From: Candidatus Doudnabacteria bacterium RIFCSPHIGHO2_12_FULL_48_16
GTDB lineage: Bacteria > Patescibacteriota > Doudnabacteria > UBA920 > O2-02-FULL-48-8
DNA length: 64,000 bases
NCBI GenBank assembly: GCA_001780035.1
Contig: MFEY01000007.1
Coordinates: 331,146 to 395,145, forward strand
Reading direction: 5' to 3'
Position numbers and translations under genes: made by a program. Shown piece after piece: positions 2,944-50,968 of this stretch; position 1 is the stretch's first letter, and every line of letters begins with the position of its first letter. The notes below the pieces were generated by a model. It ran no database searches. It worked only from the letters and a program-made list of their open reading frames with translations, and was not told the DNA's origin.

Positions 2944-3981
2944 ATGATTGAAACCAACGAAATAGAAACTGATATTATAAATCCCGTCTCAATGCCTGAC
3001 GAGAGCTTGTTTGAGGCAACTCTACGGCCCCAGAAACTCGCCGAATATGTGGGCCAGGAAAAAATCAAGGAAAATCTAAAAATTTTGATTGACGCTGCCC
3101 GCGGTCGCAAAGAAACTCTAGAGCATATTTTATTCTACGGCCCCCCAGGCTTGGGCAAAACCACGCTGGCCCACATCATCGGCCGGGAAGTCGGCGTCAA
3201 TGTCAAAGTCACCTCCGGCCCGGCCATCGAAAAAGCCGGAGATCTGGCCTCAATCCTGACCAATTTGGCGGAAAATGATATTTTGTTCATCGACGAAATC
3301 CACCGCCTGAACAAAACCGTGGAAGAAATTTTGTATCCCGCCATGGAAGATTATTGCCTCGACATTGTCCTCGGTAAGGGCGCGGGGGCGAAAGCAGTTC
3401 GCCTCGACATGCCCAAATTTACCCTGATTGGGGCGACCACCCGGATCGGCCTGCTGACCGGCCCGTTCCGCGACCGGTTCGGCATGACTTACCGCCTGGA
3501 TTATTACGAGGAACCGGAGATCGAGAGAATTATCGGCCGGGCCGCCAAAATTTTAAATATCGGCATTGATGACCCCGGCAAAAAAGAAATCGCCAAGCGC
3601 TCCCGCCGCACGCCGCGCATCGCCAACCGGCTGCTGAAGCGCGTGCGGGATTTTGCCCAGGTCAAAGCCGCAGGCAAGATTACCGAAGACATCGCCCATC
3701 AAGCCCTGTCCATGATGGAAGTGGATGAATTGGGTCTGGATCAAAACGACCGGCGGATTTTGGAAGCCTTGATCGAAAAATTCGGCGGCGGCCCCACCGG
3801 CATCTCATCCATCGCCGCGGCCACGTCGGAAGACCAAGGCACGATCGAAGATATTTACGAACCCTACCTACTCCGCTTGGGCCTGATTGAGCGCACCCCC
3901 AAGGGCCGGGTCGCCACCCCTGCCGCTTACGATCATCTCAAAAAACCGGTCAAGAAACCGGCCGGGCAAACTCTTTTATAA
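2944..3981 (+). CDS. ruvB: Holliday junction branch-migration helicase RuvB
   Basis: 345 aa with the AAA+ Walker A motif [14 protein letters not shown], the sensor region and the RuvB C-terminal winged helix. Confidence 0.95.
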
Positions 3982-7199: not shown

Positions 7200-8537
7200 T
7201 CATATCAGATACAACCGGTCGCGGATTAAATCAATTTCCTGTTTGGTTGAACTTTTTTCTTTAATGATCCTCTCAATTTTATCAATCGCATGGATAACCG
7301 TGGTGTGGTCGCGCCCGCCAAACAAATCGCCGATCGACGGCAGGGAGGTTTCCAGTTCCTTGCGGATAATATACATGGCAATCTGGCGCGGGTTGACGTA
7401 TTCTTTCTTGCGGGATTGTTTGACCATATCATCGGTGGTGACGTTGTAAAAATCCGCCACCGCCTCAATGATTTTTTTGGCGGAAACCCCGCGTTTTTTG
7501 GGCGGGGTGATGACATTGACCAAAACACCCTTGACTTGATCGAGCGTTGGTTTGGTGTTGTTGAGCTGGCAATAAACCATCAGGCGGTTAAGCGCCCCTT
7601 CCAGTTCGCGGATATTGCTTTGGATGTTTTCGGCAATGTAATTGAGCACATCCGGATCGATATTGTAGTTTTTCTCCCGGGCTTTGGTTTTCAAAATCGC
7701 CAACCGGGTTTCCAGATCCGGTGATTGGATATCTGCAATCATCCCCCACTCAAACCGCGAGACCAGCCGCTCTTCGATGGCTGGAATTTCCTTGGGCAGC
7801 CGGTCGGAAGTCATGACCACCTGCTTGTTGTTCTGGTGCAGGGCATTGAAGGTATGAAAAAACTCTTCCTGGGTCCCTTCCCGGCCGGCCAGAAACTGAA
7901 TATCGTCCACCAGCAAGACGTCCACGTTGCGATAAGTGGACTTGAACTGGTCGGCGCGCCCTTGGGACAGGGCGGTCACAAAGTCGTTAGTGAATCGCTC
8001 AGAGGTAACATATAAGATTTTGGCTTCCGGCTCGCGCTTTAACACTTCTGCCCCAACCGCTTGCATCAAATGGGTTTTGCCCAGGCCGACGCCGCCGTAA
8101 ATGAAAAGCGGATTATAGACTGAGCCCGGTTTTTTGCTGACGGCCAGGCTGGCCGCGTGCGCGAGTTGGTTGTGGGACCCAACGATAAAGGTATTAAAGA
8201 CGTATTTGGGGTTGAGAGTTTGATTTTCGGCCCGTCGGGGAGCCACACGCGATGCTTCCCGGGACATGGATGGAGTAGTGGGGGCCGGGAAATTGTTGGC
8301 GATCTGGTATTTAATTTCTTTGATTTCCGGCAGGAGGGTTTTGGCGGCCCTGAGGATTTCGGGATTATATTTGTTCTGCAGCCATTCCTTGGTGAAGGCA
8401 TTGGGAACGCCAACAATCAGGCTGGAGTCTGCTTTTTCGGTGATGGTGGTGTTCTTGAACCAGGTGGTGAAGTTGGCTTTTGAAAGGGTTAATTCGAGAT
8501 TTCCGAGAATGGCTTGCCAGAGCTGTTGATTAGTCAT
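7200..8537 (-). CDS. dnaA: Chromosomal replication initiator DnaA
   Basis: 445 aa with N-terminal MTNQQLWQAILGNLELTL, the AAA+ motif GGVGLGKTHL and the C-terminal DnaA-box-binding domain. Confidence 0.95.
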   Translation of the reverse strand: MTNQQLWQAILGNLELTLSKANFTTWFKNTTITEKADSSLIVGVPNAFTKEWLQNKYNPEILRAAKTLLPEIKEIKYQIANNFPAPTTPSMSREASRVAPRRAENQTLNPKYVFNTFIVGSHNQLAHAASLAVSKKPGSVYNPLFIYGGVGLGKTHLMQAVGAEVLKREPEAKILYVTSERFTNDFVTALSQGRADQFKSTYRNVDVLLVDDIQFLAGREGTQEEFFHTFNALHQNNKQVVMTSDRLPKEIPAIEERLVSRFEWGMIADIQSPDLETRLAILKTKAREKNYNIDPDVLNYIAENIQSNIRELEGALNRLMVYCQLNNTKPTLDQVKGVLVNVITPPKKRGVSAKKIIEAVADFYNVTTDDMVKQSRKKEYVNPRQIAMYIIRKELETSLPSIGDLFGGRDHTTVIHAIDKIERIIKEKSSTKQEIDLIRDRLYLI

Positions 8538-13629: not shown

Positions 13630-14388
13630 ATGCCGCCAGTTTTTATGGCAGAATCCCAATTAGAGCGCATTCTTATCGAATATGGGCTTAGACAAAAACA
13701 AGCCAAGGTTTACTTGGCGTGTTTGGAAGTGGGTTCAGGCACCGTGCTGAAGATCGCCCAAGCCGCTGGCATGCCCCGTTCCACTACGGAACTGGAACTG
13801 AACCACTTGTTGGACAGCGGTCTGGTCTCCATGTATAAAAAGAAAAGCGTGAAGTATTTTAGTGCCGATGACCCTCATTCGCTTTTGAATTTACTGGAAG
13901 AAAAATCCGAACTAATCCAAAGAGCGCTGCCAAAATTTGTTTCTTTATATGGCAGCAATAAAACCAGGCCCTCAGTGCGATTTTACGAAGGCCGTCAGGG
14001 GTTGAAGCTAGTCTTAGGTGAAATACTTGTGGAAGCCAAGGAATTAATTTCACTTGGTTCAGCAGAGGATTTATTTAAAGTTTTGGAAGACTTTCCGGAA
14101 TTCGTAATGAAAAGAGTGGAACGTAAAATTCCTGTTAAAGTTATTCTTATAGATTCTCCGAAGGCCAGAGAGAGAAAGCTTCTGGGACCACAACAGCTTC
14201 GGCAGGTAAGACTGATACCGGAAACTTACAGTTATCACGGTCAATACAATGTTTGGAACAACAAGATCGCGATGTTTTCCTTTGGCCGTAATTTGTCAGC
14301 TGTGGTAATAGAAAGCCTAGAACTGGCGCAAATGCAAAAGGCTGCCTTTAATTTTATGTGGGACAGCCTGGAGGTCAAGAGAAATTAA
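13630..14388 (+). CDS. TrmB-like HTH transcriptional regulator (paralog 2 of 5)
   Basis: N-terminal HTH ILIEYGLRQKQAKVYLACLEVGSGTVLKIAQAAGMPRSTTELELNHLLDSGLV and the conserved C-terminal domain. Confidence 0.6.
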   Translation: MPPVFMAESQLERILIEYGLRQKQAKVYLACLEVGSGTVLKIAQAAGMPRSTTELELNHLLDSGLVSMYKKKSVKYFSADDPHSLLNLLEEKSELIQRALPKFVSLYGSNKTRPSVRFYEGRQGLKLVLGEILVEAKELISLGSAEDLFKVLEDFPEFVMKRVERKIPVKVILIDSPKARERKLLGPQQLRQVRLIPETYSYHGQYNVWNNKIAMFSFGRNLSAVVIESLELAQMQKAAFNFMWDSLEVKRN

Positions 14389-15587
14389 TTGTCTAAGTAA
14401 AATAGTGAAATCGCAAACCAAAACAGCACGGCTAAATCATTCTTGAAATAAGGGACATCGACCAAGCCGTGCAAAATCACAATCAGCAGGAATGCCGCGG
14501 CCGCCAGGCCCCACACCGTGGGGTGTTTTTTTTGCCGCTCGCCGACGGCACCTATGATCAGACCAAATGCCAGCAGCCCAAGCAAGCCGGTTTCGAGCCA
14601 GAAGTTCAGAAAAATATTGTGCGGATAATTGAGAATCTCTCCTTGAAAGTCGGCCGCGCTCAGAGTCGTGCGAAAACCGTGCAGTCCGTTGCCCAAAAAT
14701 GGTTCGTCTTGGATTTTTTGGATGCCAAGCCGCATGAGCTCCAGCCGGGCGTCACTGGAAGCATCGGAGACGGCGGAGACGAGCCGTTGCCGGATCGGAG
14801 CCACTCCCACTCCCAATGATCCGAGCAATACCAGGGTGACGATGGTCAGTACAGCCCGGCCGCTGTGGTTTTTGATCAGGAACAGAGTCAGGGTAATTGC
14901 AACCGCGAGCCAGGCGCCCCGGGAAAAGGTGAGAATCAAGGCCGCGGCCATGAGCAGGAGCCCCAGAATTTCCAGCCATTCGCGTTCAAATAACCGATAT
15001 TTTTTGTAAATTAAAATCGCAAACAGACCAAACAACGGCGCCAGGAACAAGGCCAGGGCATTCGGATAATCGAAAACCGAAGTTATGCGCTCCGGTTCTA
15101 TCCCCGTGCCCCAAAATCGGATTGGCAAGCCGGACAGGGTAAAATATTGGACGACGCCGAACAGCGAGATTAATCCGGAGCTCACAAACAATCCCTGCAG
15201 CGCCAATCTGATATTTGATTTTTCTTCCCATAGCAACACTAGCGCGTAAAATACCAAGACTGGTTCGATAAAGAAAGCCTTCAGTTCTCCCAGGGCCTTA
15301 AGTTTTTCCGGCGAGAGATAGGCGGCCACAGACGCGGCCAGTAAAAATAACCCGATGATCCAATTGAGCCGGCCGAGTTTGCGAAGCGGCCGGAAGTCCG
15401 GCTGTTGGGCCAGCAATCCGACAAGAAAAGCCAGGATTAAAACTTCAAGCAGAGTGGTTGGCAATCCCAGCAGCGTGAATCGGACTTGATAAGCCGGCAG
15501 CAAAAACAGCAGGACGGCCAAAGCCCAGCCAGGTTTTTTGAAAGCCAGATATAAGAAACAGACACTGATGACAAAAATGATCGTCAT
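14385..15587 (-). CDS. O-antigen ligase / Wzy-like polytopic membrane protein
   Basis: 400 aa with about 10 transmembrane helices and the Wzy_C-like motif ...LTFSRGAWLAVAITLTLFLI. Confidence 0.55.
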   Translation of the reverse strand: MTIIFVISVCFLYLAFKKPGWALAVLLFLLPAYQVRFTLLGLPTTLLEVLILAFLVGLLAQQPDFRPLRKLGRLNWIIGLFLLAASVAAYLSPEKLKALGELKAFFIEPVLVFYALVLLWEEKSNIRLALQGLFVSSGLISLFGVVQYFTLSGLPIRFWGTGIEPERITSVFDYPNALALFLAPLFGLFAILIYKKYRLFEREWLEILGLLLMAAALILTFSRGAWLAVAITLTLFLIKNHSGRAVLTIVTLVLLGSLGVGVAPIRQRLVSAVSDASSDARLELMRLGIQKIQDEPFLGNGLHGFRTTLSAADFQGEILNYPHNIFLNFWLETGLLGLLAFGLIIGAVGERQKKHPTVWGLAAAAFLLIVILHGLVDVPYFKNDLAVLFWFAISLFYLDN

Positions 15588-33695: not shown

Positions 33696-33895
33696 TTTTC
33701 AAAGAATTTGCCGCTAAAGAAAAACTTGCCTGTCCGCCGAAACTTTAGTGCAGGCGAAAAATTGTCAGCGGTGCGGCTCCGCCGCCTTTCCGAATTTTCG
33801 CGGGGTGAATTCCCCGCCGCCGCAGGCGGCGAAATGCGTTCGGACTAATTCAAGAATACTGCACCATAATTTATAGAAGAGTTATTGGAAATAAA

Positions 33896-35640: not shown

Positions 35641-35671
35641 AAAGCCCCCGATATTCGGGGGCTTTATTTTT
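35641..35671. terminator. Bidirectional terminator (AAGCCCCCG-atatt-CGGGGGCTT + T-run)
   Basis: AAAAGCCCCCGATATTCGGGGGCTTTATTTTTT. Confidence 0.7.
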
Positions 35672-36399
35672 TATTCGATTGTTTTAGCCACTGGAGCCAC
35701 AGCCACGGGTTTCAAAAACTTTTTGTAAGTACCTTTGGTGTAAGCATACCAGGGTTGGAATCCGCGAGCCTTATATTTGAGCAAGGCAATGTCGAGGTTG
35801 AATTTGCAATCCCGCAATTGCTCAACGCTGTAAGGCGGGTGGTATTTGGGATTCCAGTTGATCTGAGCCAATCCGACGTCGAGCGAACCATTGCGGTTCA
35901 CGCCGCGGTTGTCGCGGGTACATTCATGGGTCCCATTTTCACCCTTTAGCACTGCGATAAAGATTTCACACTGGGCCAGACCCATCTTCGGACAGACATA
36001 AGCGCGGATTTCTGGCTCATGCATGTAAACTCGGTCATCGCCCAAAATCTTGGGCGGGAAGGAGTAAGAAGATTTGGTGACCGCAATTGTTTTCTTCGGT
36101 GCAATCACAACTGGAGCGGGCGCGGGATCAACGATCGGTTCCGGTTCAGCCACAGTTTCATCATTATCATTGTTATCAATGAAGTCAGAAATCTGTTGGA
36201 TGTTGGGAATTGTAATTGTTTGAAAGTTTTTTATTTCAAGGACTTGTCGTGTTTTGTTTTCCGCCTTCGCTAAAGCTATGGCGGACAAGTCAGTTGAGGC
36301 CATCGCTGCCTGGGGTAACAACAGGGTTGGCAGGATGGTTAGCAAACTGATCAAGATGATCCGGTTTGCTAAGGTCAACCGTTCAAAACGGCTAGTCAT
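35671..36399 (-). CDS. Lytic transglycosylase, SLT (GH23) domain, secreted
   Basis: N-terminal signal peptide. C-terminal ...GENGTHECTRDNRGVNRNGSLDVGLAQINW resembles the SLT catalytic region (E...S...GLMQIN). Confidence 0.55.
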   Translation of the reverse strand: MTSRFERLTLANRIILISLLTILPTLLLPQAAMASTDLSAIALAKAENKTRQVLEIKNFQTITIPNIQQISDFIDNNDNDETVAEPEPIVDPAPAPVVIAPKKTIAVTKSSYSFPPKILGDDRVYMHEPEIRAYVCPKMGLAQCEIFIAVLKGENGTHECTRDNRGVNRNGSLDVGLAQINWNPKYHPPYSVEQLRDCKFNLDIALLKYKARGFQPWYAYTKGTYKKFLKPVAVAPVAKTIE

Positions 36400-41027: not shown

Positions 41028-41393
41028 CTAATTCGACTCGGAAGCGTTTATCGGGCTCTTGGGTTCGGCCATCTTACAGGCGCCGGAAAAGTAAGCGCCT
41101 TCGCGTATGCCTAAGGAAGCGCAGCTGACATTGCCGACAATTTTGCCGGTTTCCAAAATTACCAGCGCGCCTTTGACCATGACGTTGCCTTTGACTGCGC
41201 CAGCCACGGTGGCATTGCCCGCAATCAAATCGGCATCAATCTGGGCGTTGGGGCCGATGATCAGATCCTGCGCGGTCTGGACTTTGCCGTTGACGATCCC
41301 GTCGATTTTGATATTGCCGGCGCTTTTGAGTTCCCCCTCGATCCGCATGGAGGAGGAAACAATGGTCTCGGCGAATTCTTGTATCTTGGCCAT
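41028..41393 (-). CDS. Bactofilin (polymer-forming cytoskeletal protein)
   Basis: 121 aa of beta-helical bactofilin repeats: IEGELKSAGNIKIDGIVNGKVQTAQDLIIGPNAQIDADLIAGNATVAGAVKGNV. Confidence 0.75.
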   Translation of the reverse strand: MAKIQEFAETIVSSSMRIEGELKSAGNIKIDGIVNGKVQTAQDLIIGPNAQIDADLIAGNATVAGAVKGNVMVKGALVILETGKIVGNVSCASLGIREGAYFSGACKMAEPKSPINASESN

Positions 41394-41428
41394 TTTAATT
41401 TATAATTTATAATCTAAAATTTATAATT

Positions 41429-41893
41429 CTATTTGGCGTCCTTTATTGCCTGCATTTCTTCTTCCGTCAGCTGGGTTTCGCTGCGGCCGGCCTTAACGGC
41501 CTTGGCATAAACGCGCGTCCCGTCCCGCCCATGGAGCGAGGACATGACAACGCCTTCATCCTTGGCATTCAGGAGCGCGAGCGTAAAACTGATATTGCCA
41601 CCGGCATCGTCAAACGGGTTGAATCGTACAAAGCCGACTTTCTGGATGTTATTCCGGTTACCGGTAAAAATTGTATCCAGGCTTTCGTCAATCTCTTTGA
41701 TTTGCTGGGTAATTTTGCTGATTGAGCGGTTCTGATCGATCAGGATTTGTTCCAGATCTTTTTTGAGGCCGGAAGAGAAAAATTCCCGCCGCATCCGATC
41801 CAGCCGGTGGAGCTTTAACGCCTGCCAAAAGACGATAATCAAAAGAGCTACGCTTAAAATAGTGCTGATTAAAGCTAAATATTGAGAATCCAT
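41429..41893 (-). CDS. DUF4446-like membrane-anchored protein
   Basis: N-terminal transmembrane segment. ...KVGFVRFNPFDDAGGNISFTLALLNAKDEGVVMSSLHGRDGTRVYAKAV... is typical of DUF4446. The start was moved to MDSQYL to clear the tRNA. Confidence 0.5.
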   Translation of the reverse strand: MDSQYLALISTILSVALLIIVFWQALKLHRLDRMRREFFSSGLKKDLEQILIDQNRSISKITQQIKEIDESLDTIFTGNRNNIQKVGFVRFNPFDDAGGNISFTLALLNAKDEGVVMSSLHGRDGTRVYAKAVKAGRSETQLTEEEMQAIKDAK

Positions 41894-41904
41894 AAAAATT
41901 TCCA

Positions 41905-41978
41905 TGGTGGACCCGGGGAGAATCGAACTCCCGCCTCAGCAATGCGAATGCCGCGTAATACCACTTTACTACGGGCCC
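41905..41978 (-). tRNA. tRNA-Ala (CGC), CCA-encoded
   Basis: The reverse complement folds as acceptor GGGCCCG/CGGGTCC (one G-U pair), anticodon arm CGGCA-TTCGCAT-TGCTG and T-arm GGGAG-TTCGATT-CTCCC. Confidence 0.75.
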
Positions 41979-44075: not shown

Positions 44076-45385
44076 AAAATCTTTTTGAGTTCTTCTCTGG
44101 CCACAGTCCGGTCATCCCACGGGATATAACCGCCCCGGACTGCCATTTTTTGTTCCGCGCCTTTGCCGGTGATCAGAATTAAATCATTGGCTTGCGCCAG
44201 GGCGAAAGCTTTGGCCATGGCTGCGCGCCGGTCCGGAATTTTATATAAATTTTGATTGAGGAGTTTGCCCTGTGCCATGCTGCCTGCCGCCATCTCATCC
44301 ATAATTGTTTGCGGGTCGTCGTCATACGGATCGTCGGTCGTCAGAATCACCACGTTCGCATTTTCTGCCGCGAGTCTTCCCAGCACCGGCCGGCGCGCCT
44401 GATCGCGGCCCCCGCCGGTTGACCCGAGGATTTGAATAATATTTTTTTCGCTCCAATTTTTGATTGTGGCGTAAACTTGCTTCAGGGCTGCGGGTTCGTA
44501 GGCATAGTCAACCAGGACTTGGAATGCCTGGCCCTCATCAACGAGCTCCATCCGGCCCGGGACATTGGGAATTTTTTCCAAGGCGTGCCTGGCCAGGCTC
44601 AGATCAATCCCTAAGCGCGAGGTTATGGCAATCGCAGCTAGGGCATTGTAAAGATCAAAAATTCCTTTTAAATTCAGGCTAAAATCCACGTCGGCCACGC
44701 GGAACGCCACTCCCCGTTCGCTGGCTTTCAAATCCATGCCGCGGATGTTGGCGACTTCTGCTTGGCCGTAAGTTATTTTTTGATCCACGCTGAAGTTCAA
44801 AAATTCCGCGGCCGCACGATCGTCAATGTTAGCCGCAATTATTTTGGGCACGCGCTGCTTGGCGATCGTCTTGTGCGGCAGATTTTGCAAAGTTTCAAAA
44901 TACTTTAATTTTGATTGTTTGTAATTTTTAAATCCCCCGTGCGCTTCCAGATGCTCCGGCGTTAAGTTAGTAAAGACCAGGCAATCATAATGAAGGCCAA
45001 CCTGGCGGTGCTGCAGGATTCCTTCTGAGGACGATTCAATCACAGCAAAGCCGGCGCCGTTTCGCACTCCCTGCGCCAGCAGGCGCTGCAGGAAGAATCG
45101 TCCCGGCATGGTCATCTTTAGATTATTGAGCCATTCGTTTTTGCCGTCGCTGAAACTGACGGTCGACGAGACCACGACTTTGTGCCGGGCCTCGCGTAAA
45201 ATTTCCGCGATCAAATTAACGGTCGTAGATTTGCCGTTGGTGCCAGTCACTCCGATCACGATCAGATTTTCCGACGGCCGGCCATAAATAAAATTGGCTA
45301 AGTGAGCCAGCATTAAATGATACCAGCCAAGCAAGAATTTCGGAATAAATTTTTTAATAAAGTTTTTCAATTTATAATTTATCAT
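44066..45385 (-). CDS. Mur ligase family protein (MurE-like UDP-N-acetylmuramoyl-tripeptide synthetase)
   Basis: 439 aa with the Mur ligase P-loop IGVTGTNGKSTT and the central and C-terminal Mur ligase domains. Confidence 0.6.
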   Translation of the reverse strand: MINYKLKNFIKKFIPKFLLGWYHLMLAHLANFIYGRPSENLIVIGVTGTNGKSTTVNLIAEILREARHKVVVSSTVSFSDGKNEWLNNLKMTMPGRFFLQRLLAQGVRNGAGFAVIESSSEGILQHRQVGLHYDCLVFTNLTPEHLEAHGGFKNYKQSKLKYFETLQNLPHKTIAKQRVPKIIAANIDDRAAAEFLNFSVDQKITYGQAEVANIRGMDLKASERGVAFRVADVDFSLNLKGIFDLYNALAAIAITSRLGIDLSLARHALEKIPNVPGRMELVDEGQAFQVLVDYAYEPAALKQVYATIKNWSEKNIIQILGSTGGGRDQARRPVLGRLAAENANVVILTTDDPYDDDPQTIMDEMAAGSMAQGKLLNQNLYKIPDRRAAMAKAFALAQANDLILITGKGAEQKMAVRGGYIPWDDRTVAREELKKILQK

Positions 45386-46847
45386 TTAAAATTTCATGCT
45401 GTAGGTTTGGCAAAGCCGCGAGTAATCCCAGCACGACAAACAGCATGAGTCTCCCCTGCTGAATTGTAACAAAATAATGATCAAACTGTCCCAGGATCAA
45501 AAAAATCAATCCTAGAAAGATCAGGGAAAATTTAAGCGGCCCAACTGGGCCATGCCGCGCGCCGCGGAAAATTTGGATGATGATCAGGACAAAAATAGCC
45601 AAAGCTCCGACACCGGATTCCGCCGCAATGAAAATAAAAATATTATGGGCCGGTTGGTATTGCCAGGCCTTCAAAGCATACAGATCCCGCAGTGCCGGCA
45701 CGTAGTTCCCTACCCCTACCCCCAGCCAGGGATGTTGGGCCACCAAGTTTAACCCTAGGTCATTGAAGAATCCACGGTCTGTAATGGAGGTTTGATTCTG
45801 ATCCAAAACCCGGGTTTTGAGTAGCTCAAAATAAGTTCCATCCGCCTTCGTTAAAACTCCGGCGGACAGGCATGAAACAATGCCAATAATGGCTAAGATA
45901 AGCGATTTTTTCCATTGTTTGTGCCAGAGCCAATAGATGCCAAAGCCCAAATATCCGATGGCCGTGGCCAACCAGGCTAGCCGGGAAAAAGTCACAAAGA
46001 TTCCGAGCGTGATTAAGATCGTTCCACATGAAACCAAGAATAGCCTTAGTTTTGTTTCACGCCTGCCCGCCGAAGCCTCGGCGAAGGCGGATGAAACCAA
46101 AAAAAAGCCCATAAATAAGGCAAAAATCAGGAAAGACGCTAAAACATTGGGGTGTGGGAATGTTCCGTAAGCCCGAATAACCTTCCCTCCCAGAGTATCG
46201 ATCGTGGCTAATCCCGTCGTTCCCAGCGGCGGGATATATTCCCCAAGGAATTTCAGGCCAAGCATATGTTGCACGTGAAACTGCCAGAGAGCCAAAATCG
46301 CCTGGGTAACCCCTAATATAAATAGTATAGTGGCTGAAAGCCGGAACTGAATTGTTTCACGGAATGTTTCACGGAGGTAAATTAGCAGTAATAATAGCTC
46401 AAACCATTTAAAAACCCCGTAAATCCCCAGTTTTATTTGTTTCACGTGGAACACCGAGACTACAACCCAGAGAAATAACCCCAATAATAGCCAGAGTTTG
46501 CTGGTCAGGCTAATTCGAGGGCGCTCAAAAACCAGCCAGCTTAAGAAACACAAAATTAAGATTAAATCAGTCAGATAAACAAAGATGGCCAGGTGGTAAT
46601 TGAAATACCAGGAGATATATGATTGGGCCGGATTATAAAGCATCCGGGTTTGAATGGGCAGCAATAATAGGAATAAATAAAAGAAAACTTCATGAAACCG
46701 AAGTTTCATAAGCCAAGCTGATAAATGTTTCACGCCTGCCCGCCACGCCGCATTTTCTAGAAAATTTAAAAATTGTTTCACGTGAAACATAAATTTTTGG
46801 CTAATATTATTGATAAAAGGCAAGGCAGGCGGGTGAAACATTGACAT
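45372..46847 (-). CDS. O-antigen ligase / Wzy-like polytopic membrane protein (paralog of 14385-15587). 5' third is motif-laden.
   Basis: 491 aa with 10-12 transmembrane helices and the motif ...TFSRLAWLATAIGYLGFGIYWLW. The extent of the true coding 5' end is uncertain; see findings. Confidence 0.5.
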   Translation of the reverse strand: MSMFHPPALPFINNISQKFMFHVKQFLNFLENAAWRAGVKHLSAWLMKLRFHEVFFYLFLLLLPIQTRMLYNPAQSYISWYFNYHLAIFVYLTDLILILCFLSWLVFERPRISLTSKLWLLLGLFLWVVVSVFHVKQIKLGIYGVFKWFELLLLLIYLRETFRETIQFRLSATILFILGVTQAILALWQFHVQHMLGLKFLGEYIPPLGTTGLATIDTLGGKVIRAYGTFPHPNVLASFLIFALFMGFFLVSSAFAEASAGRRETKLRLFLVSCGTILITLGIFVTFSRLAWLATAIGYLGFGIYWLWHKQWKKSLILAIIGIVSCLSAGVLTKADGTYFELLKTRVLDQNQTSITDRGFFNDLGLNLVAQHPWLGVGVGNYVPALRDLYALKAWQYQPAHNIFIFIAAESGVGALAIFVLIIIQIFRGARHGPVGPLKFSLIFLGLIFLILGQFDHYFVTIQQGRLMLFVVLGLLAALPNLQHEILNDKL

Positions 46848-46938
46848 ATTGAATAATTTATTTTTTAATAAAAATATGAATTTACATTTTGAGTTTCTGC
46901 TTTTTCAAGATATCATGGAACGTAAGAGGAGGTAACCC

Positions 46939-47187
46939 ATGACGCCAAGAATCGTCGTGGCCAAGGGAGCGGGGTTGATCCGGCAATACGCGCAGCTGCG
47001 TTCCCGCTGGGATCGTGAAGCCTGGCTTGCCAAGGCTGAGCGGGCCGTCAGCTTGTGCACAAGAGATGAAGAAGAAAGGCTCCTGGCCATGATCCGTCTC
47101 ACGCAATATGCGCTGGGACAGGGGAGCCCTTACCCGGATAATAAAGAAGGAGGAGACCATGGGACGAAGGGAGGAGGTTCTCGCTGA
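46939..47187 (+). CDS. Hypothetical 82-aa protein in a GC-rich patch
   Basis: Strong AGGAGGT Shine-Dalgarno 6 nt upstream: MTPRIVVAKGAGLIRQYAQLRSRWDREAWLAKAER.... Confidence 0.4.
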   Translation: MTPRIVVAKGAGLIRQYAQLRSRWDREAWLAKAERAVSLCTRDEEERLLAMIRLTQYALGQGSPYPDNKEGGDHGTKGGGSR

Positions 47188-47413: not shown

Positions 47414-47560
47414 ATGGTCCACCCAATCGTCGATTGAACGCCAGGTAGTCGGGCCGATAGCCAGATAATAAGGCTATCATCCAACACTGGCGTTCGTTCC
47501 TGCTCTAGAAAACATACGGAGATAAATGTATAATATATGAACTTGAAAATTGTTGAAATA

Positions 47561-47612
47561 CGGGGTGTCGTATACCGGTAGTATGCACGCCACGCCCCCC
47601 ACACCAGTTTTA
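47561..47612 (+). pseudogene. Truncated, divergent copy of the 5' part of tRNA-Pro
   Basis: CGGGGTGTCGTATACCGGTAGTATGCACGC aligns to CGGGATGTAGTATACCGGTAGTACACGCGC of tRNA-Pro(CGG). There is no T-arm or 3' acceptor. Confidence 0.35.
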
Positions 47613-47613
47613 T

Positions 47614-47687
47614 CGGGATGTAGTATACCGGTAGTACACGCGCTTCGGGTGCGTGAAGACCGGGTTCGATTCCCGGCATCCCGACCA
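47614..47687 (+). tRNA. tRNA-Pro (CGG), CCA-encoded
   Basis: Acceptor CGGGATG/CATCCCG, anticodon arm CGCGC-TTCGGGT-GCGTG and T-arm CCGGG-TTCGATT-CCCGG. Confidence 0.8.
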
Positions 47688-47816
47688 AAAGACGCTCGGA
47701 CCTTGCAAAATTACCGGTTGTCGAAATTTAATTAAATTTCGCAACCTGCGTTCTCGACCCGCTTAAAGCGGGTCTGCGAAGGCTAATTTTGCAAGGTCCT
47801 CGCTGAAAGCAATTAT

Positions 47817-48922: not shown

Positions 48923-49564
48923 ATGAAATTCCCGACGTTCGTTTATGAAACCAAAAAATATAAAGAGGGGCTTTTCTTTGTTGCCGGGTGCGATGAAGTC
49001 GGGCGGGGGCCATTAGCTGGACCAGTCGTGGCCGCGACCGTGATCCTGGATCCGCTCTCGATCGGCAAGCAGCGGTCCAAAACCAAATGGTGGTATCGGG
49101 TGCGCGATTCCAAGACCGTGAATGAGCGGGAGCGCAGCGAACTGGAGCGGTTTATCAAAGATCATTGTCTGGATTTTGCCATTGCCGAAGTCTCGCATGA
49201 AACAATTGATGAAATCAACATTCACCAGGCTGGGATGCTGGCCATGCGCAAATCGGTTGATGGCCTGAAACCAAAACCGGATTTTTTATTTCTCGACGGC
49301 CGGCATACGATCAGGGGTTTGGATATGAAACAGGAAGCAGTGATTCAGGGCGATACAAAAATTTTGTCGATCGCGGCCGCCTCGATAATCGCCAAAGTCG
49401 CCCGGGACAAAATTCTTGGACAGCTTCATGCGATTTACCCACAGTATGGTTTTGGCAAGCACAAAGGCTACCCGACGCGGCAACACCGCGAGGCGATTCT
49501 AAAATTTGGCGTCCTGCCCGTGCATCGCCGCAGCTTTGCCTTCGTGAAACAATGTTTGCGATGA
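48923..49564 (+). CDS. rnhB: Ribonuclease HII
   Basis: MKFPTFVYETKKYKEGLFFVAGCDEVGRGPLAGPVVAATVIL is the canonical RNase HII active-site region. Confidence 0.9.
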   Translation: MKFPTFVYETKKYKEGLFFVAGCDEVGRGPLAGPVVAATVILDPLSIGKQRSKTKWWYRVRDSKTVNERERSELERFIKDHCLDFAIAEVSHETIDEINIHQAGMLAMRKSVDGLKPKPDFLFLDGRHTIRGLDMKQEAVIQGDTKILSIAAASIIAKVARDKILGQLHAIYPQYGFGKHKGYPTRQHREAILKFGVLPVHRRSFAFVKQCLR

Positions 49565-49743: not shown

Positions 49744-49989
49744 ATGAGATTTTACGCATATATTCTCAAAAGCCAGAAGCACGGCAGATATTATGTTGGA
49801 TCAACAAATGATCTTCAAGATCGATTGAAAAGACATAACGCCGGTTATAATAAATCAACCAAGGATGGCGTTCCTTGGGAACTAGTCTATAGTGAAACTT
49901 TTTTGACGAAGCAAGAAGCATACAAAAGAGAATTAAAAATAAAAAGTTATAAGGGCGGTGAAGCCTTTAAGCGCTTGATAAATTTATAA
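49744..49989 (+). CDS. GIY-YIG nuclease family protein (single-domain, UPF0213-like)
   Basis: 81 aa: MRFYAYILKSQKHGRYYVGSTNDLQDRLKRHNAG...EAYKRELKIKSYK. Confidence 0.8.
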   Translation: MRFYAYILKSQKHGRYYVGSTNDLQDRLKRHNAGYNKSTKDGVPWELVYSETFLTKQEAYKRELKIKSYKGGEAFKRLINL

Positions 49990-49993
49990 ATAC

Positions 49994-50083
49994 GGAAGCG
50001 TGGCCGAGTGGTTGAAGGCACGGCTCTCGAAAAGCCGCAGAGGTGAAAGCCTCTCGTGAGTTCGAATCTCACCGCTTCCGCCA
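49994..50083 (+). tRNA. tRNA-Ser (CGA), type II, CCA-encoded
   Basis: Acceptor GGAAGCG/CGCTTCC, anticodon arm CGGCT-CTCGAAA-AGCCG, a long variable arm and T-loop TTCGAAT. Confidence 0.85.
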
Positions 50084-50100
50084 AGAAATCAAGCTAGTTC

Positions 50101-50140
50101 GTCCGGTCGAATGACCGGACGCCCGATCGGATGATCGGGC
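50101..50140. repeat. Twin 20-nt hairpins (GTCCGGTC-gaat-GACCGGAC / GCCCGATC-ggat-GATCGGGC) between direct repeats of the tRNA-Ser 3' end
   Basis: Two adjacent hairpins, each an 8-bp stem with a 4-nt loop, bracketed by the 13-nt direct repeat TCCGCCAAGAAAT at 50077 and 50154. Confidence 0.4.
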
Positions 50141-50168
50141 GACTCCCACCCTCTCCGCCAAGAAATTT

Positions 50169-50510
50169 ATGATTATTACTTACGAAGATTTTCAGAAAGT
50201 GGATATCAGACTCGGCAAAATTATTGACGTCCAAGATTTTCCGGAAGCGAAAAAACCGGCATTTAAGCTTCGGATAGATTTCGGGACTGATGTGGGCATC
50301 AAAAATTCCAGCGTCCAAGCCGTCGGCGCCCATACTAAAGAAGAGTTGTTGGGGATGCCAGTGATGTGCGTAGTTAACTTTCCTGTTAGAAAAATTGGCC
50401 CGTTTGAATCCGAAGTTTTAACTCTCGGTTTCAAAAATAATTCAGGAACTGGTTGGATCCTGGCAACTCCAGCCAAAAATTCAGTAAACATTGGTGATCG
50501 ACTGCAATAA
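50169..50510 (+). CDS. csaA: tRNA-binding protein (CsaA/Trbp111, EMAP-like OB fold)
   Basis: 113 aa: YEDFQKVDIRLGKIIDVQDFPEAKKPAFKLRIDFGTDVG...VMCVVNFPVRKIGPFESEVLTLG. Confidence 0.75.
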   Translation: MIITYEDFQKVDIRLGKIIDVQDFPEAKKPAFKLRIDFGTDVGIKNSSVQAVGAHTKEELLGMPVMCVVNFPVRKIGPFESEVLTLGFKNNSGTGWILATPAKNSVNIGDRLQ

Positions 50511-50512
50511 GT

Positions 50513-50968
50513 ATGGACAACGTGCAAGAGAAATTTATGCGGGTCGCTTTGGCAGAAGCCAAGGCTGCCCAAGCCGCGGGCGACTTGCCGTTTGGCGCAG
50601 TCATAGTTTGTGACGACAAAGTTGTTGGCGCAGGCCGTGCGCAAAATAACACGGTCGGCGATGTCACCGACCACGCAGAATTATTGGCCATTCGACAGGC
50701 CTGTCAGACTTTGAGTAAGAACAATTTGTCCGATTGTGTCATTTATTGCAGCAATGAACCGTGTATTATGTGTGCGGCCGGAATCTTTCAAGCCAACATA
50801 CCCAAAGTCGTGATCGGTGTTTCACGGGATGATCTGCCTAATTTTTTACGCCCGCGCCGGATAAAGATTGAACATCTGGCTGAAGATTCCAGTTATAAAA
50901 TTGAAATTATACGGGGTGTTTTGAAAGATCAAATTTTGTCATTGTTTGAAAATATTAAAAATAATTAA
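50513..50968 (+). CDS. tadA: CMP/dCMP-type zinc deaminase, tRNA adenosine deaminase TadA-like
   Basis: HAELLAIRQA (H-A-E zinc ligand) and PCIMCAGAI (C-x-x-C). 151 aa. Confidence 0.75.
   Translation: MDNVQEKFMRVALAEAKAAQAAGDLPFGAVIVCDDKVVGAGRAQNNTVGDVTDHAELLAIRQACQTLSKNNLSDCVIYCSNEPCIMCAAGIFQANIPKVVIGVSRDDLPNFLRPRRIKIEHLAEDSSYKIEIIRGVLKDQILSLFENIKNN

What the first reader, a model, noticed from the sequence alone, without database searches (positions are those of the whole stretch)
46050..46850. Dense cluster of TGTTTCACG motifs, palindromes and exact 19-bp direct repeats inside the 5' third of a membrane-protein ORF
The 9-mer TGTTTCACG occurs at 46053, 46363, 46375 (a tandem pair 12 nt apart), 46438, 46726 and 46774. 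A near-copy in reverse orientation occurs at 46832. About 0.5 occurrences would be expected by chance in the whole 64-kb window; the only other copies are at 50818 and 49543.

At 46774-46789 the motif forms the perfect 16-bp palindrome TGTTTCACGTGAAACA. A second hairpin, ATGAAAC-cgaa-GTTTCAT, lies at 46692. The 19-mer TGTTTCACGCCTGCCCGCC is repeated exactly at 46053 and 46726, and the two copies are translated in different reading frames of the same ORF (ASAGRRETK versus AAWRAGVKH). That argues the conservation is at the DNA/RNA level, not the protein level.

The region may be a regulatory or recognition-site platform such as transcription-factor half-sites, uptake or restriction-like sites, or small inserted repeats. 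The true start of the Wzy-like gene may lie downstream, or the gene may tolerate in-frame repeat insertions such as the tandem RETF-RET.
Basis: seen in the sequence. Interest (0 to 1): 0.55.

Follow-up and report, generated by a model that had tools for sequence, protein, structure and literature searches.

The report
Gene-embedded parS centromere split by mini-palindromes
The repeated motif is the chromosome's centromere-like ParB-binding site (parS), clustered inside a membrane-protein gene near the replication origin of a Candidatus Doudnabacteria genome, and several copies have been cut exactly in the middle by a tiny mobile palindromic repeat, which had not been described in the literature I could search.

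Summary
In detail: 9 copies of TGTTTCACG against 0.49 expected, with two coordinates off by 10.

**What it is.** The 16-bp palindrome at 46774 is the canonical parS (TGTTTCACGTGAAACA), the ParB/Spo0J loading site. The only three sites in the 64 kb with 3 or fewer mismatches lie in this Wzy/O-antigen-ligase-like gene, about 38 kb from dnaA.

**Conservation.** Homologous genes across CPR/Patescibacteria carry parS clusters:
- 52 perfect 16-mers in 523 kb, against 0.0001 expected.
- Sites are 8.6-fold denser in the gene than in its flanks.
- They are read as FHVK or VSRET with near-invariant synonymous codons (Val GTG 44/44 against 18% background; Arg CGT 25/25 against 15%). Selection therefore acts on the DNA.

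**The 19-mer.** The exact 19-mer is a half-parS fused to the end of a GC-rich palindromic mini-element inserted at the parS dyad. The window has three: two 30-bp inserts and one 99-bp element that carries its own intact parS. Close relatives have seamless empty sites with intact parS. The element family is dispersed across CPR genomes.

**Limits.** No ParB gene was found in the about 84 kb visible, so binding is inferred. The element's transposition mechanism is unknown.

**Verdict.** A known kind of site (parS), in a new gene-embedded, element-targeted variant.

The parts
45372..46847 (-). Wzy_C / O-antigen-ligase-family membrane-protein ORF that hosts the sites. It is 491 aa from the first ATG; the public annotation, 489 aa, starts at 46841 with MFHPPA.
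   Evidence: Pfam PF04932 E=7e-19. P0001 is 100% identical and named Candidatus Doudnabacteria. Homologs are mostly 436-448 aa.
46774..46789 (.). Perfect canonical parS, TGTTTCACGTGAAACA. On the coding strand it reads MFHVKQ. It lies inside the 99-bp nested element.
   Evidence: 0 mismatches. The same 16-mer is used as parS in ParB studies.
46438..46453 (.). parS with one mismatch (TGTTCCACGTGAAACA on the - strand). It encodes FHVKQ, residues 133-137.
   Evidence: This variant is the parS used in B. subtilis and H. pylori ParB work. F133, V135 and K136 are invariant or nearly so in homologs. Codons are constrained.
46267..46282 (.). parS-like site with two mismatches (AGTTTCACGTGCAACA on the - strand). 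It encodes QFHVQH, residues 189-194.
   Evidence: The same 16-mer is conserved in 14 or more homologous loci. Val is GTG and Gln is CAA in all cases.
46053..46098 (.). Split parS, site 4. Left half 46053-46060, 30-bp GC-rich palindromic insert 46061-46090, right half 46091-46098. It reads VS|SAFAEASAGR|RET.
   Evidence: excision leaves TGTTTCACGTGAAACC. Empty-site orthologs carry an intact GTTTCACGTGAAAC. It folds as an extended hairpin, z=-4.6.
45834..45879 (.). Split parS-like site 5. Half-site 45834-45841, 30-bp insert 45842-45871 in the opposite orientation to site 4, half-site 45872-45879. It reads VSC|LSAGVLTKAD|GT.
   Evidence: (pair I1). Excision gives TGTTTCATGTGGAACT, one base from the sequence orthologs carry intact, TGTTTCATGTGGAACA.
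46726..46840 (.). Nested unit. Left half-parS 46726-46733, 99-bp element 46734-46832 (GCCTGCCCGCC ... intact parS 46774-46789 ... GGCAGGCGG), right half-parS 46833-46840. It contains the second 19-mer and splits the start-codon parS.
   Evidence: Excision restores a perfect parS. The closest relative, P0002, has ATGTCAATGTTTCACGTGAAACAT uninterrupted. The same architecture occurs in L134, L056 (three times), L007 and L208. It folds as a long hairpin, z=-4.5.
46353..46373 (.). Tandem pair of right half-sites 12 nt apart. The coding strand reads CGTGAAACATTCCGTGAAACA, which is RETFRET.
   Evidence: The same tandem occurs in P0002, L001, L004 and L010.
46020..46035 (.). Degenerate parS-like site, CGTTCCACATGAAACC. 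It encodes VSCGT.
   Evidence: VSCGT with TGTTTCATGTGGAACA is conserved in orthologs.
46692..46709 (.). ATGAAAC-cgaa-GTTTCAT: two half-site-like heptamers facing outwards. It encodes MKLRFH. Its relation to ParB is uncertain.
   Evidence: H52 is invariant in homologs, so protein constraint alone may explain it.
33728..33757 (+). Dispersed copy of the 30-mer element outside any parS, in an intergenic region.
   Evidence: nhmmer E=6e-6.
36261..36290 (-). Dispersed copy of the 30-mer element outside any parS. It is in frame in an ORF and reads DLSAIALAKAE.
   Evidence: E=5e-7.
7200..8537 (-). dnaA, with dnaN and recF alongside. It marks the replication origin about 38 kb from the parS cluster. 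Context only.
   Evidence: Pfam. rpmH-rnpA-yidC-jag lie next to it. Cumulative GC skew is lowest at about 4-8 kb.
49543..49551 (-). Isolated 9-mer in the RNase HII gene with no partner half-site. Probably chance or a solitary half-site.
   Evidence: Two outliers against 0.49 expected is not significant (my estimate, p about 0.09).
50818..50826 (+). Isolated 9-mer in the deaminase gene with no partner half-site. Probably chance or a solitary half-site.

Best explanation
The motif cluster is the origin-proximal centromere of this Candidatus Doudnabacteria chromosome. It is a set of ParB-binding parS sites written into the coding sequence of a Wzy/O-antigen-ligase-like gene.

Shown:
- The palindrome is identical to the canonical parS.
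- All near-consensus sites in 64 kb (84 kb with extensions) lie in this gene, about 38 kb from dnaA.
- The same gene family carries parS clusters across CPR lineages.
- The sites are read only in the two stop-free frames (FHVK or VSRET), with synonymous codons frozen to the parS sequence.

Inferred from established ParABS biology:
- ParB dimers nucleate at the full sites: 46774 perfect, 46438 with one mismatch, 46267 weaker.
- They close as CTP-dependent clamps, spread over neighbouring DNA, and organise or segregate the origin region.
- Orphan half-sites give weak binding without spreading.

The exact 19-mer and the 46-nt inverted repeat have a second cause. A small GC-rich palindromic repeat, 30 bp in its short form, is inserted at the dyad of three parS sites in this gene. 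A 50-100-bp long form has ends of the type CCGCCTGCC...GGCGGGCAGGC. The insertion has no target duplication beyond one ambiguous G and always falls in frame. The long form carries its own intact parS, so the start-codon site it splits is replaced. Close relatives have seamless empty sites, so the element inserts or excises precisely.

How it moves is not shown. A structure- or sequence-directed single-strand (HUH/Y1-type) mechanism acting at the hairpin apex of parS is my best guess.
For: Identity with parS:
- One search finds 0-, 1- and 2-mismatch sites, the only three in the window with 3 or fewer mismatches.
- Searches show the same 16-mers used as parS in ParB studies.

Origin proximity:
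-.
- No other parS within 10 kb of either window edge.

Conservation:
- 52 perfect 16-mers in 20 of 81 loci over 523 kb, against 0.0001 expected. 28 of 81 genes have at least two sites with 2 or fewer mismatches.
- Density is 0.42 per kb in the gene against 0.049 per kb in the flanks.

DNA-level selection:
- FHV[KQ]: Val GTG 44/44 (18% background), Lys AAA 30/30, Gln CAA 14/14, His CAC 75% against 34%.
- VSRET: TCA 25/25 (23%), CGT 25/25 (15%), GAA 25/25, GTT 24/25.
- FHVK is seen 30 times against 0.22 expected, and VSRET 25 times against 0.007.

Insertion at the dyad:
- In-silico excision restores a perfect parS in the window's nested unit, L006, L185 and L056a.
- Orthologous empty sites are intact parS.
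- P0003 and P0009 are 82% identical, and their only internal indel is exactly these 30 bp.
- The window and its closest relative P0002 differ by precise inserts at sites 1, 4 and 5.
- Carriers are scattered on the gene tree.
- The window and P0003 inserts are 27/30 identical against 66% gene-wide identity, p=0.0025.
- In L208 the same element ends split two different parS sites of one gene.

Dispersed family:
- About 30 copies in 1.33 Mb, most of them not at parS.
- The same split architecture occurs in a YraN/UPF0102 gene (L185) and in a folD-mnmE intergenic region (L134).

Other:
- Half-site binding by ParB in vivo has precedent: PMC5961200.
- Y1_Tnp (IS200-like) ORFs sit right after the parS-bearing gene in L030 and L034.
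Against: - No ParB or ParA gene was found in the window, in 10 kb beyond each edge, or in any fetched neighbourhood. Only about 84 kb of this genome is visible, so the reader protein is assumed, not seen.
- Binding is not tested.
- FHVK and QFHVQH are also conserved peptides, so some protein-level constraint coexists.
- For the element, no transposase is linked to it in this window.
- Copies outside parS share no obvious target sequence.
- Two of the parS-inserted examples (L185, L133) came from a search that required the junction, so they do not count towards enrichment.
- The tree used for homoplasy is a simple NJ tree of one gene, and recombination between orthologs could mimic gain or loss.
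Confidence: 0.8

Rival explanations
1. The split sites are not selfish insertions but selected composite sites. The GC-rich palindrome between the two half-sites would let the DNA extrude a cruciform (or a hairpin on single strands) that brings the halves together. That would make ParB loading depend on supercoiling or replication. The nested unit (half, full parS, half) would be a designed high-avidity loading platform.
For: All split sites keep dyad symmetry and fold with the half-sites as the basal stem, z from -4.3 to -6.0. The nested architecture recurs in unrelated genomes with invariant half-sites and an invariant inner parS. The shared insert is more conserved than the surrounding gene.
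Against: The same 30-mer family is mostly found away from parS. Some inserts decay to AT-rich sequence (L017, L011, L007), which suggests no constraint. Many orthologs do well with intact sites. Cruciform extrusion of stems this short is not established.
Confidence: 0.12
2. The palindromes are operators of a local transcription factor that regulates the Wzy-like gene or its divergent neighbour. The factor would recognise an E-box-like CACGTG core.
For: The perfect palindrome and two half-sites lie at the 5' end of the gene, next to weak promoter-like matches. TrmB-type regulators are encoded nearby.
Against: The 16-mer is base-for-base the pan-bacterial parS. Most sites are deep inside coding sequence, at different positions in different clades, and also downstream of the gene. 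The sites are conserved between genes that share only 27-35% protein identity with the window's. The location is origin-proximal. The promoter matches are no better than in shuffled sequence.
Confidence: 0.04
3. The repeats reflect protein-level repeats or motifs (FHVK, VSRET, RETF) that the membrane protein needs, and the DNA similarity is a by-product.
For: F133, V135, K136 and QFHVQH are invariant or nearly so in the protein alignment.
Against: Synonymous codons are frozen to the parS sequence far beyond codon bias. The same DNA is used in two different frames. Perfect sites also occur in intergenic flanks. The 19-mer is read in two frames.
Confidence: 0.02
4. The 46-nt inverted repeats (45835-45880 and 46052-46097) and the 19-mer direct repeats are recombination sites of a phase-variation or shufflon-like system that inverts or deletes part of the gene.
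For: Inverted and direct repeats lie inside one ORF.
Against: No recombinase gene is nearby. Each repeat is fully explained as an independent insert in a separate parS site, with an orthologous empty site. Inverting the 171-bp segment would scramble a polytopic membrane protein. The arms are only 80% complementary.
Confidence: 0.02

Closest known systems
Chromosomal parS / ParABS centromere (B. subtilis Spo0J-parS, Caulobacter ParB-parS)
   Same: The 16-bp palindrome is identical (TGTTTCACGTGAAACA; the 1-mismatch variant is TGTTCCACGTGAAACA). Several copies are clustered near oriC. Sites often lie inside coding sequence. My own recollection is that the first B. subtilis parS lies inside spo0J.
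   Different: The cluster is embedded in one particular membrane-protein gene family across a whole superphylum. The start codon itself lies inside a parS, and two reading frames are used (FHVK and VSRET). Several sites are split at the dyad. No parAB genes are adjacent.
[quoted passage not shown]
   Same: The heptamers GTTTCAC, GTTCCAC, GTTTCAT and GTTCCAT, the same variants that are enriched about 20-fold in this ORF, are bound by ParB in vivo without spreading.
   Different: There the half-sites are scattered genome-wide. Here they are concentrated in 1.5 kb, and many were generated by splitting full sites.
Rickettsia palindromic elements (RPEs; reviewed in PMC10969869)
   Same: Small palindromic repeats inserted in frame into unrelated protein-coding genes. 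They add a peptide without destroying the ORF.
   Different: RPEs are about 100-150 bp, are specific to Rickettsia, and have no known preference for a protein-binding site. The element here is 21-30 bp (short form) or about 50-100 bp (long form), and it recurrently sits at the dyad of parS.
REP elements and their RAYT (Y1/HUH) transposases; IS200/IS605 single-strand 'peel and paste' elements (PMC3733652, PMC6006769)
   Same: A GC-rich imperfect palindrome of 20-40 bp, multi-copy and dispersed. There is no target-site duplication and the empty sites are seamless. Y1_Tnp genes exist in related CPR loci (L030, L034).
   Different: The element lacks the terminal GTAG or CGTC tag. It is often intragenic. 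No RAYT is seen in the window. No constant target tetranucleotide is seen at copies outside parS.
IS1397 / ISKpn1 insertion into the loop of REP palindromes (own knowledge, not checked here)
   Same: A mobile element that targets the centre of another palindrome, giving nested palindromes.
   Different: Those are full-size IS3-family insertion sequences that target REPs, not a miniature repeat that targets a centromere site.

Membership tests
Chromosomal parS (ParABS centromere site) | 16-bp inverted repeat matching TGTTNCACGTGAAACA | tested here: met
   46774-46789 has 0 mismatches, 46438-46453 has 1, and 46267-46282 has 2. The sequences equal the parS duplexes used in the literature.
Chromosomal parS (ParABS centromere site) | Origin-proximal location, usually several clustered copies | tested here: met
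   dnaA, dnaN and recF lie at 4.8-8.5 kb, so the cluster is about 38 kb away. All sites in 64 kb with 3 or fewer mismatches are in this gene. There are none in the two 10-kb extensions.
Chromosomal parS (ParABS centromere site) | Conservation of the DNA site itself across related genomes | tested here: met
   52 perfect sites in 20 of 81 homologous loci. Synonymous codons are frozen.
Chromosomal parS (ParABS centromere site) | A cognate ParB (HTH plus CTPase) encoded in the genome | tested here: inconclusive
No ParBc Pfam domain appears in the neighbourhoods. Only about 84 kb of the genome could be seen.
Chromosomal parS (ParABS centromere site) | ParB binding, CTP-dependent loading and spreading at the site | not testable with these tools
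   Needs ChIP-seq or in vitro assays.
REP / RAYT-mobilised palindromes | 20-40-bp GC-rich imperfect palindrome in many dispersed copies | tested here: met
   30-mer family with about 30 copies in 1.33 Mb. Hairpin folds.
REP / RAYT-mobilised palindromes | Conserved terminal GTAG or CGTC tetranucleotide | tested here: not met
   None of the four window copies contains GTAG, CTAC, CGTC or GACG anywhere. In some homologous copies a GTAG occurs internally, not at the end.
REP / RAYT-mobilised palindromes | Extragenic location | tested here: not met
   Three of the four short copies in the window, and the 99-bp element, lie in ORFs and are in frame.
REP / RAYT-mobilised palindromes | Associated Y1 (RAYT) transposase gene in the genome | tested here: inconclusive
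   Y1_Tnp ORFs occur in L030 and L034 next to the parS-bearing gene. None is found in the window.
MITE | Terminal inverted repeats flanked by a target-site duplication | tested here: not met
   The ends are imperfectly inverted (GCCTGCCCGCC / GGCAGGCGG). No duplication is seen beyond one ambiguous G.
Rickettsia palindromic elements (RPE-like in-frame repeats) | Palindromic repeat inserted in frame in unrelated protein genes without disrupting them | tested here: met
   The Wzy-like gene (three times), the ORF at 35671-36399, and the YraN gene in L185.
Rickettsia palindromic elements (RPE-like in-frame repeats) | Element about 100-150 bp belonging to the described RPE sequence families | tested here: not met
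   Lengths here are 21, 30, 51 and about 99-108 bp, in a CPR host. I did not compare the sequence against the RPE families directly.

The most novel reading that the evidence does not exclude
CPR bacteria harbour a family of miniature palindromic mobile elements that home into, and seamlessly leave, the exact dyad of ParB-binding parS sites. The long form carries its own intact parS, so it replaces the centromere site it destroys. That would make it a self-compensating selfish element that lives in the chromosome's centromere, and that may multiply, move or tune ParB loading sites. The Wzy-like gene would then be a conserved 'centromere host gene' whose amino-acid sequence is partly dictated by the centromere.
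Probability: 0.3. Interest if true: 0.8.

Novelty: new variant of a known kind. Interest (0 to 1): 0.6.

Why it matters
parS is one of the most conserved cis-acting DNA sites in bacteria, yet I found nothing published on it for the CPR/Patescibacteria, a large and mostly uncultured part of bacterial diversity.

- **Annotation.** The canonical site is used in CPR, and it is kept inside one membrane-protein gene family. The centromere fixes both the peptide motifs (FHVK, VSRET) and the codons of that gene. This gives a simple marker for origin regions in CPR assemblies. It also explains odd features of annotation: MFHVK starts, in-frame low-complexity inserts and over-long ORFs.
- **Evolution.** Small palindromic repeats recurrently and precisely interrupt the parS dyad, sometimes bringing a replacement parS. 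If confirmed, this would be a new target specificity for a mobile element. It would also be a natural experiment on how many parS sites a chromosome needs and how intact they must be.
- **Biochemistry.** The natural split sites, with spacers of 21, 30, 51 and 99 bp, are ready-made substrates for testing half-site recognition and clamp loading by ParB.

Tried and rejected
- **CRISPR-repeat-like reading (GTTTCA...TGAAAC).** Dropped once the 16-mer was recognised as parS.
- **Local transcription-factor operator.** Rejected: the sites are deep in coding sequence, conserved across phyla and identical to parS. The promoter scan was no better than shuffles.
- **Protein-level repeat.** Rejected by the codon tests.
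- **Known structured RNA.** Rfam finds nothing at E up to 1 over 45300-47100.
- **MITE with half-parS terminal repeats and a target duplication.** Rejected: there is no duplication, and orthologous empty sites are intact parS, not absent parS.
- **Invertible or deletable segment (shufflon-like).** No recombinase is present, and every repeat is explained by an insert.
- **Search for ParA/ParB.** Negative in the window, in both 10-kb extensions and in all loci. The literature gave no statement on ParB in CPR.
- **Metagenome scan for the half-site/GC-block junction.** Most of the 120 hits were chance matches in high-GC genomes. Only L098, L133, L134 and L185 were informative, and because the junction was required they cannot be used for enrichment statistics.
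- **DUF4446.** No literature, and the homolog search returned only close relatives, so a link to ParB could not be tested.
- **Site-4 carriers.** My first automatic scoring of site-4 insert carriers was wrong. The states were re-read from the alignment and from DNA.
- **L134 excision.** The L134 coordinate was off by one and I did not rerun it. The sequence appears to give a perfect site on excision.
Full report
**1. Observation.**

The 9-mer TGTTTCACG occurs 9 times in the window against 0.49 expected, and no shuffle reaches 9. Seven of the copies lie between 46053 and 46789. The 16-bp palindrome at 46774-46789, the hairpin at 46692-46709, the reverse near-copy ending at 46840 and the exact 19-mer at 46053 and 46726 are all present.

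- Two further near-palindromes, at 46438 (1 mismatch) and 46267 (2 mismatches). Together with 46774 these are the only three sites in 64 kb with 3 or fewer mismatches.
- A 46-nt, 80% complementary inverted copy of the 46052-46097 segment at 45835-45880.
- A degenerate site at 46020-46035.

**2. Setting.**

The ORF 45372-46847 (- strand) is a Wzy_C/O-antigen-ligase-family membrane protein. It is 100% identical to a Candidatus Doudnabacteria (CPR/Patescibacteria) protein. The window contains recF-dnaN-dnaA at 4.8-8.5 kb, followed by rpmH-rnpA-yidC-jag, and the cumulative GC skew is lowest there. The motif cluster is therefore about 38 kb from the replication origin.

**3. Identity of the palindrome.**

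TGTTTCACGTGAAACA is the canonical chromosomal parS. The 15 papers listed of the 27 that contain it are about ParB-parS or origin finding, and it is the parS duplex in eLife 2020, PMC7053999. The 1-mismatch variant at 46438 (TGTTCCACGTGAAACA on the other strand) is the parS used in B. subtilis and H. pylori ParB studies. Rfam finds no RNA family in the region.

**4. Conservation in the gene family.**

I fetched 80 loci of homologous genes, one genome per species.
- They hold 52 perfect 16-mers in 20 of the 81 loci (523 kb, window locus included), against a chance expectation of 0.0001.
- 19 of 81 genes have at least one perfect site, and 28 of 81 have at least two sites with 2 or fewer mismatches.
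- Sites with 1 or fewer mismatches are 8.6 times denser in the gene (0.42 per kb) than in its 3-kb flanks (0.049 per kb).
- The Doudnabacteria clade shares sites at the start codon (MFHVK[HQ]), at LFHVK, at QFHVQH, at VSRET and at VSC[GA]T.
- A distant clade, with genes sharing 27-35% protein identity with the window's (records labelled Moraniibacteriota, Paceibacterota, Parcubacteria and others), has three other positions, nearly all in the VSRET frame.
- The third frame of parS contains TGA, so only these two frames are usable.

**5. DNA or protein?**

The peptides are conserved, and so are their synonymous positions.

| Motif | Residue and codon | At the motif | Elsewhere in the same genes |
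|---|---|---|---|
| FHV[KQ] | Val GTG | 44/44 | 18% |
| FHV[KQ] | Lys AAA | 30/30 | 76% |
| FHV[KQ] | Gln CAA | 14/14 | 65% |
| FHV[KQ] | His CAC | 75% | 34% |
| VSRET | Ser TCA | 25/25 | 23% |
| VSRET | Arg CGT | 25/25 | 15% |
| VSRET | Glu GAA | 25/25 | 69% |
| VSRET | Val GTT | 24/25 | 46% |
| VSRET | Thr ACA | 23/25 | 33% |

The FHV[KQ] rows come and the VSRET rows. FHVK occurs 30 times against 0.22 expected from amino-acid composition, and VSRET 25 times against 0.007. Perfect sites also occur in the non-coding flanks. So the DNA site is what is selected, and the peptides follow from it.

**6. The 19-mer and the inverted repeat.**

Each is a parS half-site fused to a GC-rich palindromic insert that sits at the dyad.

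| Site | Window layout | Peptide |
|---|---|---|
| Site 4 | TGTTTCAC \| 30 bp, 46061-46090 \| ATGAAACC | VS\|SAFAEASAGR\|RET |
| Site 5, opposite orientation | AGTTCCAT \| 30 bp, 45842-45871 \| ATGAAACA | VSC\|LSAGVLTKAD\|GT |
| Site 1, start codon | TGTTTCAC \| 99 bp, 46734-46832 \| GTGAAACA | in frame; the 99 bp contain the perfect parS at 46774 |

- **Excision.** Removing the insert in silico restores a perfect parS in the window's nested unit, L006, L185 and L056a. It leaves one mismatch at site 4. At site 5 it gives TGTTTCATGTGGAACT, one base from the orthologs' intact sequence.
- **Junction.** The junction is ambiguous by one G (TGTTTCAC[G]CCTG...GGCGG[G]TGAAACA).
- **Folding.** The split sites fold as extended hairpins with the half-sites as the basal stem, z from -4.3 to -6.0.

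**7. Evidence that these are insertions.**

- At site 4, orthologs L012, L015, L016, L018 and L019 carry an intact GTTTCACGTGAAAC. L006 carries a different 21-bp hairpin in the same place, and L017 a 30-bp AT-decayed insert.
- The closest relative, P0002 (63% identity), has the identical flank ATGTCAATGTTTCAC running straight into GTGAAACAT at the start codon. It also has intact sites 4 and 5.
- P0003 carries the site-4 30-mer. P0009, which is 82% identical to P0003, lacks exactly these 30 bp, and this is the only internal indel between them.
- On an NJ tree the topology is ((P0003,P0009,P0011),(P0002,window)). That requires at least two gains at the same nucleotide or at least two seamless losses. 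The nested start-codon insert has 6 carriers and needs at least 5 changes.
- The window and P0003 inserts are 27/30 identical while the genes are 66% identical in DNA, p=0.0025.
- In L208 (P0008) the same element ends, CCGCCTGCCACGCC...GGCATGGCGGGCAGG, split both the start-codon site and the LFHVK site.
- The only 1-3-nt dyad insertions seen in 699 kb are a single G (TGTTTCACGGTGAAACA, read as MFHGET), in L001 and in L002/L203. This could be a footprint at the ambiguous G, which is inference only.

**8. The element family.**

A profile of the 30-mer finds about 30 copies in the 1.33 Mb fetched. The consensus is about GCYTGYCCGCCGAAGCTTTAGCGAAGGCGG, and most copies are not next to parS halves.
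- The window has four short copies. Two are in parS, one is intergenic (33728) and one is in frame in another ORF (36261-36290, DLSAIALAKAE).
- The split-parS architecture also occurs outside the Wzy family. It is found in a UPF0102/YraN gene (L185, VSR|LPAKALASAG|ET) and in a folD-mnmE intergenic region next to DnaA-box-like sequences (L134, nested form).
- The nested units of the window, L134, L056 (three times) and L007 align, with invariant half-sites and an invariant inner parS.
- Random placement of about 30 copies onto about 70 parS dyads in 1.3 Mb predicts about 0.002 events (my estimate). Unbiased examples exist (L006, L010, L056).
- The family lacks the GTAG/CGTC tag of classical REPs (PMC3733652) and shows no target duplication. 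So it is not a member of REPs or MITEs as those are defined.
- It behaves like Rickettsia RPEs in tolerating in-frame residence (PMC10969869).
- IS200-like Y1_Tnp ORFs lie directly after the parS-bearing gene in L030 and L034. That is a lead towards a single-strand HUH mechanism (PMC6006769), not proof.

**9. Mechanism (inferred).**

- ParB dimers nucleate at the intact sites (46774, 46438, perhaps 46267). They close as CTP-dependent clamps and spread over the origin-proximal region.
- Orphan and split half-sites may add weak binding without spreading, as shown for GTTTCAC, GTTCCAC, GTTTCAT and GTTCCAT in P. aeruginosa (PMC5961200).
- Insertions inactivate or weaken individual sites. Redundancy within the cluster, and in the long form the element's own parS, would buffer the loss.
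- The main gap is that no parA or parB gene was found in the about 84 kb visible or in any neighbourhood.

**10. Verdict.**

Three things were not described in the literature I could search:
- the conserved embedding of the parS cluster in one gene family across CPR;
- the codon-level imprint on that gene;
- the recurrent, precise interruption of parS dyads by a miniature palindromic repeat, including a form that carries a replacement parS.

Noticed in passing
window 41028-41905 (- strand); also L203, L204 and L205: DUF4446 (41429-41905, E=4e-42) and a bactofilin gene (41028-41393, E=4e-25) lie about 3.5-4.3 kb beyond the 3' end of the Wzy-like gene. The order Wzy - Mur ligase - DUF4446 - bactofilin - DAGK-like is conserved in three relatives. 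Bactofilins position ParB-parS complexes in Myxococcus (PMC5703909), so this could be a segregation-related neighbourhood.
   Followed up: partly
L030 1849-2451 and L034 about 3403-3904: An IS200-like Y1_Tnp (HUH) ORF lies immediately downstream of the parS-bearing Wzy-like gene in two loci. A perfect parS sits at its 3' end in L030. The ORF itself carries a GC-rich hairpin insert (GADLRVCP...GRTHRSAPT).
   Followed up: partly
L002 site 4, L208 site 4, and proteins P0021 and P0029: A second hairpin repeat family (CCCCGCGAAAGCGGGG, read as HPRESGD) is inserted directly after site 4 in several homologs. This parS position therefore attracts more than one kind of palindromic repeat.
   Followed up: no
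L001 2975, L002 2969 and L203 10002; proteins P0004, P0012, P0016 and P0021: The start-codon parS carries one extra central G (TGTTTCACGGTGAAACA). This switches the reading from MFHVK to MFHGET, using both parS frames in one site. G is the only 1-3-nt dyad insertion seen in 699 kb.
   Followed up: partly
window 14385-15587 (- strand): A second Wzy_C paralog in the same window has no parS-like site. The centromere association is therefore specific to one orthologous group.
   Followed up: partly
window 33720-33840: An intergenic stretch holds several GC-rich palindromes (for example CGCCGCC-GCA-GGCGGCG at 33815-33831) next to the dispersed 30-mer copy at 33728. It may be a small repeat landing pad.
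   Followed up: no
window 47546-47800: Around tRNA-Pro (47614-47687), a 30-nt segment 83% identical to the 5' part of the tRNA lies just upstream (47561-47590). A perfect 16-nt inverted repeat (47698-47713 / 47784-47799) flanks 70 nt just downstream.
   Followed up: no
window 49744-50170: A small GIY-YIG ORF (49744-49989) abuts tRNA-Ser (49994-50083). The 3' end of the tRNA is repeated 77 nt downstream (50063-50089 and 50140-50166, 81% identical), with two hairpins in between. This could be the scar of an integrated element.
   Followed up: no
L018 4267-5365: A non-coding stretch of about 1.1 kb downstream of the Wzy-like gene holds three more parS sites, two of them perfect. In some genomes the cluster therefore extends beyond the gene.
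   Followed up: no
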